A stretch of DNA of 37,345 bases from a virus (lineage: Duplodnaviria; Caudoviricetes). Each line of letters opens with the position of its first letter. Positions within the stretch are counted from its first letter, which is position 1. The DNA lies in IMG/VR virus record IMGVR_UViG_3300021560_000040, positions 1 to 37,345 of that record; one strand, written 5' to 3'. The notes beneath the pieces were generated by a model. It was given only the letters and a program-made list of their open reading frames with translations. It was not told the DNA's origin and made no database searches. Positions 26,164 to 37,215 of this stretch are shown piece by piece. The position numbers and the translations under genes are program-made.

Positions 26164-26258
26164 CGCAGCTCCGGGCCGTCAGTCAGTTGAGGGGGAGGGG
26201 TGTCGGCGTACTTGTCCTTTCCGCCGATGCCCCTCCCCAATCCCCCATCGAAAGGACA
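26155..26258 (+). promoter_or_regulatory. Tandem hairpins; loop of the second is complementary to the downstream SD
   Basis: ACTGACTGACG/CGTCAGTCAGT (26155-26187); 17-bp stem 26192-26238 with two G-U pairs; loop TGTCCTTTC vs GAAAGGACA at 26250-26258. Confidence 0.65.
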
Positions 26259-32288: not shown

Positions 32289-32329
32289 GCCGGGGGCAGG
32301 GCGGAAAGGACAAGGACCCTGCCCCCGGC
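32289..32329 (-). promoter_or_regulatory. 13-bp perfect hairpin with anti-SD-like loop
   Basis: GCCGGGGGCAGGG / CCCTGCCCCCGGC; loop TCCTTGTCCTTTCCG on the - strand. Confidence 0.65.
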
Positions 32330-32332
32330 TTG

Positions 32333-32388
32333 TGGCGTGGCAGGGAGTCGAACCCTGCCCAACTCCACCAAACTCCACCACTCACGCC
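32333..32388 (-). ncRNA. Minimal tRNA-like element lacking an anticodon arm
   Basis: Acceptor GGCGTG/CACGCC+A; D-loop-like TGGTGGAGTTTGGT; T-arm CAGGG-TTCGACT-CCCTG; 56 nt. Confidence 0.6.
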
Positions 32389-32575: not shown

Positions 32576-32900
32576 CCTTCAACTCCTTCATCCCTCTCCT
32601 GAATTGGAACCCTCGGCCCATCATCGCCCTCTGCTCACCCGAGAACTCAAACCCGTCCACTGCCTCGGCGATCTGGTACATGAGACTCAGCGCGCTGACT
32701 GCCTCTGTCTCATCCCCCTCATTCAAGAACGGGAAGTACGCGCCCTTGAACGTGCTCCTCTCGTCCTTCATCTGAATCGTTATCAAATCCTCCCCAATGA
32801 ACGGCTCTGCAATCTGGTGTGCAATCGCCAATCCACTCCCACAGAAGATGTCATGGCCGTCATACTCGGCCAATTCCTCAATCGCTTCCCTCTTGTCCAT
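32559..32900 (-). CDS. Hypothetical protein
   Basis: 113 aa in the leftward chain. Confidence 0.7.
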   Translation of the reverse strand: MDKREAIEELAEYDGHDIFCGSGLAIAHQIAEPFIGEDLITIQMKDERSTFKGAYFPFLNEGDETEAVSALSLMYQIAEAVDGFEFSGEQRAMMGRGFQFRRGMKELKDAVEG

Positions 32901-33252
32901 TACCCTCTTCTTCTCTCACCTCACACACGATCCTCTTATGTTCCCTCTCGGCCTGTTCCTTAGTCTCCCACCTCCACTGTTCCCCATCCATCTTCCCGCC
33001 GAACACCATCGTCTCGAAGATCAGCGGTCTGCCATCGCCAGTCCACCGGTGATTGATCCCCAGCCACACTGTGCTGACCCTGCACTCGCCCACCTGATCC
33101 AGCCCGATTCTCTTGTACTCGTACTCGTCACCCCCCGTCCCCTTAATCAGCTCACCCCACTCCTCCAACTCAATCGGCTTCCCATTGATGTCGAAGAACA
33201 TCCCCTCAAACACCGCACCCTCCCCATATTCAGTTGTCATTGGAGTCTCCAT
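32878..33252 (-). CDS. Hypothetical phage protein (VSTVWLG.NH...PLIFETMVF...A...H motif)
   Basis: Motif pattern familiar from phage hypothetical proteins; start at 33252 or 33240. Confidence 0.75.
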   Translation of the reverse strand: METPMTTEYGEGAVFEGMFFDINGKPIELEEWGELIKGTGGDEYEYKRIGLDQVGECRVSTVWLGINHRWTGDGRPLIFETMVFGGKMDGEQWRWETKEQAEREHKRIVCEVREEEGNGQEGSD

Positions 33253-33276
33253 CTACATCTACATCTTTATCTATCG

Positions 33277-33392
33277 TGGGTTAGGCAGGTCCCGAACCTG
33301 CATCTCCAACCTTGTGTACGTCCTATTGCCGTCTGCCTAGGACACGCGCTCAACGTACATCTTGTGGCGATCTACGATTGATCTACTAACCC
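33277..33392 (-). ncRNA. tRNA-like element with enlarged anticodon arm (116 nt)
   Basis: Acceptor GGGTTAG/CTAACCC+A; TA at 8-9; D arm GATC-AATCGTA-GATC; T arm GCAGG-TTCGGGA-CCTGC; ~60-nt structured arm replaces the anticodon stem-loop. Confidence 0.65.
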
Positions 33393-33396
33393 AGGT

Positions 33397-33443
33397 GGGG
33401 CGAATGTGGCTGGCTCTCCCAACCAACCAACCACACTCGCCCC
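33397..33443 (-). other. 17-bp hairpin between the AAA+ stop and the tRNA-like element
   Basis: GGGGCGAGTGTGGTTGG / CCAGCCACATTCGCCCC; mismatches are G-U pairs only on the - strand. Confidence 0.65.
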
Positions 33444-33451
33444 AGGCCCCT

Positions 33452-34921
33452 CTACCTCTCTGTCACCTCCTCCGGCAGCTCCAATCGCGCGAAGATGTCG
33501 TCGTGACCGTCTCTCCTCACCGCGACACCCTCGACGCTGTGTTGTGAAATCCGCTTGAACGCGTTCTCCAGTGAATCCACCTTCGGCGCGTCACTCGCAG
33601 CTTCCATCAGCTCCAACTGTGGCCGCAGACTCTTCGCAGCCTTCAAGAAGTCGTCGGTCGTCAGCATGGTCACTCCGCTGCCTTCCTTGACTCCTCGCAC
33701 CATGTTCTTGACCATCGCCCGGTCCACCATCTCCCGGACAAATGCTGGCAAGAACCCATCCGCTGCCTGCCCGACGCTCACCCAGTCAACGTCATCCGCG
33801 ATCTTCCCTTCCGGTGCGACCGCGTATGCCATCCTCCTCACGCCGTCACTGTCCAACTTGCCAATGTGGATCATTCCGTCGATCCGTCCTGGCCTCGTCA
33901 GACCCTTGTGCAACTGCTCCACCTTGTTCGTCGTGAACATCAGCTGCATTCGCAGCCCCTTGCTTTGTATCCCGTCGAAGATGTCCAGTATCCTCGACAT
34001 CGTCTGGCTCTCTGAATCCACGTTCCCGATGATGTCGATGTCCTCGAAGAACACCACAGACGGCTGATACAGCTTCGCCGTCTGCATACACTCCTCGAAG
34101 TTATCTCTCCCCGGTCTGCAATACACGAACGTCACGCCATTCGCGACTGCCTTCTGTGCCGTCAAGTATCCGCCGAGCGTCTTGCCCGTCCCATACTCGC
34201 CGTACATCGCCGTGGACCGCTTCGTCCCGACGCCCAACGCTTCCAATTCATCGGGGTGCTCGATGAACTGCCACACGTTCTCGTCCAACTCCTCCATCGT
34301 GTCGTGGTTGTAGATGACCTTCTTCGCATCCACCCCACTCAAATCGATGAAGTTTGGCATCTCCTCGCCGTCGAAGCACTTGCCACGATAGATGCTTCTC
34401 TGTCGTAGCTCCTCTTCCACCACTCGAAAGATGCCCTCCGCGATGCCGCCGTCCTTCTTCGGGCATTCGATGGTCAACTGAAACAGTATCCCATCTTCCT
34501 TACTCGGCGCCTTGCCCGTGTAGATGTGTCCCCGTTGAAACCCTGGAACTTGGAACTCACCCCACGGACACCGCACCGTCTCGTTCACTCCGACTGGGAT
34601 GTCAATGAACGTCGCCTGCGTGAACAGGCTATTGGGCATCCTCACAACTCCAAATGCATTCTTCAATGCATTGAAAGTCGCCACCGCGCCGTCCCACGGA
34701 CGGAACTTGTACGTCTTCGTGAACGTCGCCATCTCCCGCTGCTCCGAATCCCACGCGTAGATGAAATCCGCAGCATCGGTCGGACGTTCCCGCATCGTGG
34801 CAGGAAGGATGATGCGCTTCCCTTCGAAGACAACATCGTCTTCGCCAGTCAGCCCACCACCCAACTCTCGCAACGTTTCCAGCACCGCTGCGACAGCCTT
34901 ATCCTGTGTCGTCTCCGGCAT
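33452..34921 (-). CDS. Classic-clade AAA+ ATPase (489 aa)
   Basis: GEYGTGKT, VVFFEDID, TTN, LTRPGRID (second region of homology); SD GGAGGT, ATG 34921. Confidence 0.9.
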   Translation of the reverse strand: MPETTQDKAVAAVLETLRELGGGLTGEDDVVFEGKRIILPATMRERPTDAADFIYAWDSEQREMATFTKTYKFRPWDGAVATFNALKNAFGVVRMPNSLFTQATFIDIPVGVNETVRCPWGEFQVPGFQRGHIYTGKAPSKEDGILFQLTIECPKKDGGIAEGIFRVVEEELRQRSIYRGKCFDGEEMPNFIDLSGVDAKKVIYNHDTMEELDENVWQFIEHPDELEALGVGTKRSTAMYGEYGTGKTLGGYLTAQKAVANGVTFVYCRPGRDNFEECMQTAKLYQPSVVFFEDIDIIGNVDSESQTMSRILDIFDGIQSKGLRMQLMFTTNKVEQLHKGLTRPGRIDGMIHIGKLDSDGVRRMAYAVAPEGKIADDVDWVSVGQAADGFLPAFVREMVDRAMVKNMVRGVKEGSGVTMLTTDDFLKAAKSLRPQLELMEAASDAPKVDSLENAFKRISQHSVEGVAVRRDGHDDIFARLELPEEVTER

Positions 34922-35073
34922 GTTACCTCCAATTGTCAATGTTCTACAATCACGACTGGCGTTGTCCTTTCCGCCAGCCGGGTGTTTGTGTTTCCACCAA
35001 CGAGTGCATTGGGGAGAGGTAACAGAATCCCCAATGCACCCGTTGGTAGCAACACACCTATGCCGCTGCTACC
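34921..35073 (-). promoter_or_regulatory. Structured 5' leader of the AAA+ gene (three hairpins)
   Basis: Stems at 35045-35073, 34997-35046 (19 bp) and ~34951-34984; all show G-U pairs on the - strand. Confidence 0.6.
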
Positions 35074-37036: not shown

Positions 37037-37215
37037 TTATCCACAGGAAATCTCCGCCGACTAGTCACCCGTTGACCATCGCTGACCTGCGATGCTTCGA
37101 CCATCTAAGTCAAGATTCGATCAAGTGTTGCGCTACTTGTCGCGCCACCTTGTCACACGACGAGTGATGCGCGACTTGTTGCGCCACTTCCGGCTGACTA
37201 GTCAACCGTTGACTA
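37037..37215. repeat. Non-coding control region: DnaA-box match, 12-mer repeats, duplicated palindrome
   Basis: TTATCCACA 37037-37045; TGTYGCGCYACY at 37126, 37138, 37177; GACTAGTCAMCCGTTGAC at 37059 and 37196. Confidence 0.55.

What the first reader, a model, noticed from the sequence alone, without database searches (positions are those of the whole stretch)
33277..33392. tRNA scaffold with a ~60-nt structured arm in place of the anticodon loop
Seen: on the - strand there is a perfect 7-bp acceptor stem (GGGTTAG/CTAACCC, discriminator A), T8-A9, a 4-bp D stem, a short variable loop (AGAT) and a 5-bp T stem, all at canonical spacing. The anticodon arm is replaced by CCAC-AAGA-TGTACGT...GTCCTA-(12 nt)-TAGGACGTACA-CAAG-GTTGG, a multi-helix extension. 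The D loop (CG for GG) and T loop (TTCGGGA) are deviant, and CCA is not encoded. Known parallels: tmRNA and other tRNA mimics, intron-containing tRNAs. It is far too short for tmRNA and lacks G3-U70. Inference: a non-decoding phage tRNA mimic, such as an RNase P/Z processing signal, a decoy for tRNA-targeting defences, or a protein scaffold.
Basis: partly seen in the sequence, partly recalled or inferred. Interest (0 to 1): 0.8.

Follow-up and report, generated by a model that had tools for sequence, protein, structure and literature searches.

The report
Non-decoding tRNA look-alike in soil phage
Between two genes, this soil phage carries a tRNA-shaped sequence whose codon-reading loop is replaced by a 62-base arm; it likely serves as a cutting mark for the host's tRNA-processing enzymes, a design already annotated in phage T5 and common in related phages, though this copy has no known homologue.

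Summary
Confirmed. 33392-33277(-) has fully Watson-Crick acceptor (7), D (4) and T (5) stems at tRNA spacing; 7.5 Mb of shuffles gave 0 equal hits. A 62-nt arm replaces the anticodon loop, no in-register excision restores one, and ARAGORN and Rfam find nothing. The arm's fold is weaker than claimed (259 of 1000 shuffles fold as well), and C18 and G58 break the elbow consensus. The element lies 3 nt behind a 20-bp hairpin that follows the AAA-ATPase stop and 36 nt before the next start. Phages with the same ATPase carry dozens of elements that keep acceptor and T arm but vary or lose the middle; one pair shows four compensatory changes, and one displays a loop antisense to gene starts. This copy has no homologue and no antisense target in its genome. 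Best reading (0.5): a non-decoding processing signal, cut by host RNase P, that splits the operon RNA; partial decay (0.2) is the main rival. The design is annotated in phage T5 (RNA1, RNA2), and this scan reported it before on other DNA. A second, minimal element with an anti-Shine-Dalgarno hairpin lies 0.9 kb downstream.

The parts
33277..33392 (-). tRNA-like element 1 (116 nt): acceptor, D and T arms kept, anticodon arm replaced
   Evidence: not called by ARAGORN or Rfam
33386..33392 (-). acceptor stem 5' strand GGGTTAG; predicted RNase P cut just 5' of 33392 (U at -1)
   Evidence: sequence; pair probability 0.96-1.0 alone, 0.78-0.81 in context; the cut is inferred
33369..33383 (-). D arm GATC-AATCGTA-GATC; A11:U24 pair and C in place of G18
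   Evidence: D stem GATC in 0 of 303 other scaffolds; the loop AATCGTA occurs in 2 ordinary phage tRNAs, L308 and L327
33306..33367 (-). 62-nt arm in place of the anticodon arm: bulged basal stem, 4x4 internal loop, interrupted helix, distal hairpin GTCCTA/TAGGAC with 12-nt loop
   Evidence: folding not above shuffles; no homologue
33285..33301 (-). T arm GCAGG-TTCGGGA-CCTGC; G in place of A58, U54 predicted to pair with A60
   Evidence: A58 present in 303 of 303 other scaffolds
33277..33284 (-). acceptor 3' strand and discriminator A; CCA not encoded
33396..33444 (-). 20-bp GC-rich hairpin without U tract, between the ATPase stop and the element; leaves a 3-nt leader
   Evidence: -41 kcal/mol, z -4.98, 0 of 200 shuffles as good
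33452..34939 (-). upstream gene, AAA ATPase (PF00004, phrog_10440)
   Evidence: best relatives 47-49% identical
32878..33252 (-). downstream ORF of unknown function; GGAG at 33250-33247 and ATG at 33240
   Evidence: no Pfam or PHROG match
32333..32388 (-). tRNA-like element 2 (56 nt): 6-bp acceptor plus 6-bp T stem with canonical TTCGACT loop, no D or anticodon arm
   Evidence: weak Rfam mascRNA match, 24 bits, E 1.1, below gathering score
32289..32329 (-). hairpin directly behind element 2; its pyrimidine loop is complementary to the phage motif GGCGGAAAGGACAA

Best explanation
This is a tRNA-derived sequence without an anticodon loop, placed between the AAA-ATPase gene and the next gene, that likely works as a processing signal: the host's RNase P would recognise the 12-bp acceptor-plus-T helix in the operon RNA and would cut in front of it. 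Shown: the scaffold, the missing anticodon, the hairpin 3 nt upstream, the ribosome-binding site 27 nt downstream, and the same acceptor-plus-T core with variable middles in related phages. Inferred: co-transcription with both neighbours; an RNase P cut at 33392/33393, which would leave the ATPase mRNA ending in a 20-bp protective hairpin; the downstream RNA would start with a paired 5' end, and a 3' cut by RNase Z or trimming plus CCA addition could free a stable RNA of about 116-119 nt. The arm is tolerated cargo whose own job is not shown.
For: (1) All 16 scaffold pairs are Watson-Crick and the stems are far above chance, while the anticodon is gone. (2) In 159 loci around related ATPases plus the window, 160 acceptor-plus-T cores were found against 2 in shuffles; 74 lack a canonical anticodon arm by my rule, 19 of these are called tRNAs by ARAGORN, and 71 of the 72 outside the window lie on the ATPase strand. 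[quoted passage not shown] (3) One homologous pair in relatives (L038/L040) keeps 26 of 26 pairs with 4 two-sided changes. (4) The order ATPase stop, hairpin, element, ribosome-binding site recurs in L042, L239 and L240. (5) A second, minimal element lies in the same genome, which has no ordinary tRNA gene. (6) RNase P cuts phage M3 RNA, C4 antisense RNA, mRNAs and a T4 dimer with a 3-nt spacer (PMC11143913 section 11).
Against: No homologue, so no covariation for this copy. A58 is replaced by G; 303 of 303 other scaffolds have A58 and 299 have the D-loop GG (part of that set was selected by a pattern that demands A58). A58 is a strong interference site for RNase P, altered T loops lower and shift cleavage, and CCA, absent here, helps. 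The position behind the ATPase is not conserved: 7 of 132 regions carry a core, one being this window and one an ordinary tRNA, against 161 of 5690 tiles anywhere in these loci. The 3-nt leader is about half paired and U54 is predicted to pair with A60. The L038/L040 test has only 2 sequences (36 of 500 shuffles reach it) and concerns another element.
Confidence: 0.5

Rival explanations
1. A decaying relic: a former tRNA or tRNA-like gene that took an insertion, perhaps by local duplication, and is losing function.
For: C18 and G58 break the elbow consensus; the arm is no more structured than shuffles; CACAAG flanks the insert as a direct repeat, and part of the arm is an imperfect inverted copy of the D arm (29 of 2000 shuffles pair as well); no homologue.
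Against: 16 of 16 stem pairs are Watson-Crick, including the unusual A11:U24, a two-sided departure from the common C11:G24; the tertiary-core bases are kept; removing the insert and one repeat leaves 12 nt, not a 17-nt arm.
Confidence: 0.2
2. A tRNA-scaffolded regulatory RNA: processing releases a stable RNA whose arm pairs with an RNA target or binds a protein.
For: A relative does this: the L039 element's loop is complementary over 17 nt to a gene start, the motif occurs at 6 same-strand sites of record G001 with 0 control matches, and my start-window test detects it (p 0.01). C4 RNA of P1/P7 is an RNase P-processed antisense RNA.
Against: For this arm the longest perfect complement in its own genome is 9 nt; duplex energies to 102 start windows match shuffles (31, 29 and 10 of 60 as good); start-window test p 0.83. 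Only 1 of 20 elements in that test had a start-antisense middle. Host targets and protein partners could not be tested.
Confidence: 0.17
3. A decoy that soaks up host tRNA-targeting defence nucleases or uncharged-tRNA sensors.
For: Only analogy (recalled: anticodon nucleases and other defences act on tRNA). tRNA shape without an anticodon loop would resist anticodon cutting.
Against: Single copy, no promoter found in front of it by the sigma-70 scan (a weak test), deviant elbow, and many relatives reduce the element to a bare acceptor-plus-T helix.
Confidence: 0.08
4. An intron-containing tRNA that is spliced to a decoding tRNA.
For: Insert at the anticodon position; canonical-looking intron tRNAs occur among the pattern hits (seen). 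One excision of 43 nt gives a 19-nt arm with U33 and GUA.
Against: None of the 18 in-register excisions gives U33 or a pyrimidine at 32; the one hit is out of register by 2 nt with A32 and C37; no bulge-helix-bulge by inspection; no RNA ligase or nuclease of that kind among the proteins scanned; no Rfam intron or ribozyme match.
Confidence: 0.03

Closest known systems
Phage T5 RNA1 and RNA2 (GenBank AY543070, 30501-30644 and 32959-33083; 'tRNA-like stable RNA with unknown functions')
   Same: tRNA-like body with T arm and D-like arm and a long arm where the anticodon arm should be (RNAfold structures); similar size (144 and 125 nt against 116).
   Different: T5 RNAs lie in a tRNA cluster, have canonical T loops and a variable-arm hairpin, and are recorded as stable RNAs; no sequence match was reported for T5. 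This element stands alone between protein genes, has a short variable loop and lacks A58 and G18.
C4 antisense RNA of phages P1/P7 and phage M3 RNA (RNase P substrates; PMC11143913 section 11); P4 CI RNA (recalled)
   Same: Phage RNA in an operon transcript with a shape that RNase P could cut.
   Different: No Rfam C4 match and no antisense target for this arm in its genome.
YrlA-type bacterial Y RNAs (PMC4201824, passages)
   Same: tRNA-like D, T and acceptor module joined to another module; the M. smegmatis RNA is cut by RNase P and gains CCA.
   Different: YrlA lies next to a Ro60 gene and its acceptor stem is internal; here the acceptor stem holds both ends and no Ro60/TROVE match was found.
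mascRNA/menRNA and plant mitochondrial t-elements (RF01684; PMC1920247 seen as a search listing)
   Same: tRNA-like shape used to make RNA ends; upstream stabilising structure next to the cut (mechanism recalled).
   Different: Eukaryotic or organellar; element 1 has no Rfam match, element 2 only a sub-threshold one.
tmRNA
   Same: tRNA-like ends with the anticodon region replaced by a larger domain.
   Different: 116 nt, G3:C70 not G3:U70, a full D stem, no tag found by ARAGORN.

Membership tests
Canonical tRNA (RF00005) | 7-bp acceptor, D arm and 5-bp T stem at standard spacing | tested here: met
Canonical tRNA (RF00005) | 5-bp anticodon stem with 7-nt loop and U33 | tested here: not met
   62-nt arm
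Canonical tRNA (RF00005) | G18-G19 and T-loop TTCRA | tested here: not met
   C18 and G58
Intron-containing tRNA | one excision restores a canonical anticodon arm | tested here: not met
   0 of 18 in-register excisions; one out-of-register product with A32 and C37
tmRNA | G3:U70 alanine identity, tag reading frame, length of several hundred bases | tested here: not met
   G3:C70, 116 nt; (defining features recalled)
YrlA Y RNA | adjacent Ro60 gene | tested here: not met
   no such match among 56 proteins against PHROGs and 49 against Pfam
YrlA Y RNA | match to the YrlA covariance model | tested here: not met
C4/CI-type antisense RNA | exposed sequence complementary to a site in the phage's own transcripts | tested here: not met
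   longest complement 9 nt; (positive control L039 detected)
T5 RNA1/RNA2-type tRNA-like phage RNA (a descriptive kind, not a curated family) | tRNA body with an extended arm and no anticodon loop | tested here: met
   the T5 structures are RNAfold predictions
T5 RNA1/RNA2-type tRNA-like phage RNA (a descriptive kind, not a curated family) | accumulates as a discrete stable RNA | not testable with these tools
   no RNA run holds the stretch
RNase P substrate | 12-bp acceptor-plus-T helix with accessible N-1 | tested here: met
   7+5 bp, U at -1; leader about half unpaired
RNase P substrate | canonical T loop and 3' RCCA for efficient, accurate cutting | tested here: not met
   G58, no CCA; determinants from PMC11143913
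RNase P substrate | cleavage at +1 | not testable with these tools
   needs an in vitro or in vivo assay

The most novel reading that the evidence does not exclude
The element is a switchable tRNA mimic. Its deviant D arm is complementary to the 5' side of its own arm (11 pairs, probability 0.78-0.90 in context), so it could flip between a tRNA shape that RNase P cuts and a shape it cuts poorly, with a ligand on the arm (two unpaired ACAAG strands, a GUCCU/AGGAC stem echoing the phage's GAAAGGACAA leader motif) setting whether the operon RNA is split. Together with element 2 and its anti-Shine-Dalgarno hairpin this would be a phage regulatory circuit built on borrowed tRNA processing.
Probability: 0.08. 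Interest if true: 0.8.

Novelty: new member of a known kind. Interest (0 to 1): 0.38.

Why it matters
Phage tRNA-like RNAs without an anticodon have stood in the T5 annotation with no function, and tRNA finders miss them. If they are RNase P marks, they give phages a way to cut polycistronic RNA and to release stable small RNAs with host enzymes, a natural version of the tRNA scaffold used in the laboratory. The group of ATPase-bearing actinophage-like genomes studied here offers a graded series, from bare acceptor-plus-T helices to long arms and one loop antisense to gene starts, that makes the question testable in vitro. This particular copy is a weak flagship: it is unique, deviant at the elbow and unexpressed in any data at hand.

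Tried and rejected
ARAGORN default: 0 genes; with introns and lowered thresholds only noisy calls with other boundaries. Rfam: nothing relevant in the whole window or in 33200-33470. Homologue searches: blastn of 351 nt against 50,697 phage records, no match; exact 23-nt T-arm pattern in viral contigs, 0; D-arm pattern, 45 stretches, none with an extended arm, 2 ordinary tRNAs; extended scaffold with TTCGGG T loop, 6 stretches, none real; blastn against 2.5 Mb of fetched loci, only the D-arm words I had selected for and short chance matches; earlier findings by sequence and by place, none. The single-protein locus search found no relative. No RNA holder listed. Runs X2 and X3 hold identical pieces of this phage at low depth but none covers the element. 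Antisense target in its own genome: none. Across 50 hand-listed elements, 4 middles and 2 downstream stretches reached p under 0.05, about what chance gives; only L039 stands out. Element 2's hairpin loop was not better than shuffles by duplex energy (24 of 60). attP core: rejected, both acceptor strands are present and no integrase match was found. Coding role: only short or opposite-strand ORFs overlap, the longest without Pfam match. Promoter scan: 1 site against 3.0 expected. No acceptor-plus-T core near the ATPase in the four actinobacterial-type genome contigs checked (L336-L339). No literature on RNase Z in Streptomyces was retrieved, so that step rests on recall.

Full report
Setting. 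The window is a whole virus record, 37,345 bases, 99% complete by CheckV, with terminase, portal, major head, endolysin, helicase, Cas4-like exonuclease and Sak4-like genes on the + strand and a - strand arm of small genes with an AAA ATPase. The ATPase's best relatives are 47-49% identical. Named relatives are Gordonia and Mycobacterium phages at about 36% and contigs of Acidimicrobiia, Bifidobacteriaceae and Actinomycetes genomes at 39-45%, so an actinobacterial host is likely (inference). The three runs that hold the DNA are soil metagenomes, one possibly its source. ARAGORN finds no tRNA in the genome.

Observation. The element reads as described: 7+4+5 Watson-Crick pairs at tRNA spacing, a 62-nt arm, variable loop AGAT, discriminator A, no CCA. 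In 7,468,218 shuffled bases my scanner gave 0 such hits and 1 looser one. Bases that form the tRNA core (numbering recalled) are mostly kept, including A15/U48, a combination seen in 68 of 181 ordinary tRNAs of my loci. G18 and A58 are not. Acceptor and T stems form in either fold (0.78-0.81 and 0.99 in context). Low D-stem probability is common in real tRNAs too (36 of 170).

What it is not. No in-register excision gives U33 (0 of 18); one out-of-register 43-nt excision gives a loop with GUA but A32 and C37. It has G3:C70 and no tmRNA call, no Ro60 gene nearby and no Rfam match. Five sequence or pattern searches found no homologue (with 54, 52 with 54, 70).

Context. The ATPase stop (33452) is followed by a 20-bp hairpin without U tract (z -4.98), three bases, the element, and 27 nt later a GGAG and ATG. 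A second element at 32388-32333 keeps only a 12-bp acceptor-plus-T helix with a canonical T loop and is followed by a 13-bp hairpin whose loop is complementary to GGCGGAAAGGACAA. That 14-mer occurs three times in the genome, each time in a hairpin loop, against 0.0004 expected from a Markov model (the motif was chosen after seeing it).

Related phages. An alignment of 60 of the 120 listed ATPases fetched 80 viral and 80 metagenome loci (L203 is the window itself and was left out). In 159 loci plus the window, 160 distinct acceptor-plus-T cores were found against 2 in shuffled sequence; 86 have a canonical anticodon arm and 74 do not by my rule, of which 19 are called tRNAs by ARAGORN and are mostly my mis-parses. 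Of the 72 outside the window, 71 are on the ATPase strand; 37 of 160 sources have at least one, 24 of them with no ordinary tRNA in the stretch held. Middles range from 7 nt to over 100 nt; 21 of 74 keep a D arm. L042 (159 nt), L065 (153 nt), L037 and L237 carry extended arms on an intact body. L038 and L040 share an element with 26 of 26 pairs kept and 4 two-sided changes (two sequences, 36 of 500 shuffles reach this). The order stop, hairpin, element, ribosome-binding site recurs behind the ATPase in L042, L239 and L240, but the position is not conserved: 7 of 132 regions, counting this window and one ordinary tRNA, against 161 of 5690 tiles anywhere and 7 of 2640 shuffles. More widely, one pattern for a tRNA body with a long middle has an estimated 2800 stretches in the viral collection; the 121 loci fetched held 106 non-canonical scaffolds (output partly cut), a mixed set that includes what look like ordinary intron-bearing tRNAs.

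Does the arm carry a guide? In L039 the loop at the anticodon position is complementary over 17 nt to a gene start; the motif stands at 6 same-strand sites of that record with up to 2 mismatches and 0 control matches. A start-window test over nine related records and the window found this case (p 0.01) and no other middle among 20 elements; the arm studied here gave p 0.83, and the stretch behind element 2 gave p 0.04. Longest perfect complement of the arm in its own genome: 9 nt. Host targets could not be tested.

Mechanism. [quoted passage not shown] It also cuts phage M3 RNA, C4 antisense RNA, mRNAs and a T4 dimer with a 3-nt spacer, where CCA helps (same paper, section 11 read whole). What this phage group keeps is that helix. 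I therefore read the element as a processing signal: a cut at 33392/33393 would end the ATPase mRNA in its hairpin and start the downstream RNA with a paired end, and 3' processing (RNase Z and CCA addition, recalled) could release a stable RNA. Every step after the anatomy is inferred. The missing A58 and G18 count against efficient cutting: 303 of 303 other scaffolds have A58 and 299 have GG (part of the set was selected for A58). The D loop alone is tolerated in two ordinary phage tRNAs. Hence 0.5, with decay at 0.2, cargo function at 0.17, decoy at 0.08 and intron at 0.03.

Comparison with what is known. The T5 record annotates RNA1 and RNA2 as 'tRNA-like stable RNA with unknown functions'; their predicted folds show a tRNA-like body with a long arm at the anticodon position (my strict scanner did not parse them). 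T4 rnaC and rnaD are expressed late RNAs of unknown function (PMC9697503, passages). YrlA RNAs are tRNA-like, lie beside Ro60, and one is cut by RNase P (PMC4201824, passages). A survey of viral structured RNAs lists five tRNA-like candidates without describing replaced anticodon arms in the passages seen (PMC10690425; its supplements were not opened and may hold such models). Irregular tRNAs in soil metatranscriptomes are described in PMC5389517 (passages). Ten full-text searches listed no paper devoted to phage tRNA bodies with a replaced anticodon arm; the library lacks most subscription papers and older T5 work. This scan has reported the design in at least eleven other genomes (unchecked notes), one of which pointed me to T5.

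Verdict. A real, non-random tRNA-like element and a new member of a known but poorly described kind. It works most likely as an RNase P mark; its arm has no shown function and no homologue. Interest 0.38. The most novel reading, a D-arm switch that gates processing, is not excluded (29 of 2000 shuffles pair as well, a test made after seeing the fold) but is unlikely (0.08).

Noticed in passing
window 32289-32329(-), 26184-26240(+), 34954-34980(-): Three GC-rich hairpins share one 14-nt loop motif. Two are transcribed as the pyrimidine (anti-Shine-Dalgarno) strand, each just upstream of a matching site (GAAAGGACAC at 26250+, GGAGAGGAC near 32277-); the third, in the ATPase leader, is transcribed as the purine strand. 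Could be cis pseudoknots over ribosome-binding sites with loop-loop control in trans, or DNA hairpin sites.
   Followed up: partly
window 32333-32388(-): Second tRNA-like element with only acceptor and T arm (6+6 bp, canonical T loop), 4 nt in front of the anti-Shine-Dalgarno hairpin; a better RNase P candidate than the element under study.
   Followed up: partly
L039 5259-5332(+); record G001: tRNA-like element whose 18-nt loop is complementary to a start-associated motif found at 6 same-strand sites. The strongest antisense case among the relatives.
   Followed up: partly
L038 9004-9095(+), L040 8961-9052(+): Homologous tRNA-like elements with four compensatory changes and an invariant loop containing the palindrome GTGCAC.
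   Followed up: partly
L084, L087, L094, L155, L159, L163, L179, L185, L194 (each near locus position 1490-1610 or 290-410): A recurring subfamily of extended-arm tRNA scaffolds with a hairpin followed by ACAGCAA, which could pair with the hairpin loop as a pseudoknot (seen).
   Followed up: no
L054 11552-11633(+), L003 3683-3756 and 3767-3839(+): tRNA bodies with pyrimidine-rich, anti-Shine-Dalgarno-like loops; L054's matches one gene start over 12 nt, L003's gave no signal.
   Followed up: partly
L065 6354-6506 and 6731-6854(+): tRNA bodies whose inserts contain a second T-arm-like hairpin.
   Followed up: no
window 34987-35056: Long near-perfect inverted repeat (29-bp arms, z -8.87) upstream of the ATPase leader.
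   Followed up: no
window 1-37345: Negative GC skew on the + strand along the whole record, although gene orientation switches near 29.2 kb.
   Followed up: no
window 37056-37213: Repeated GACTAGTC-containing 21-nt sequence near the right end, as direct and inverted copies; possible packaging, origin or operator sites.
   Followed up: no
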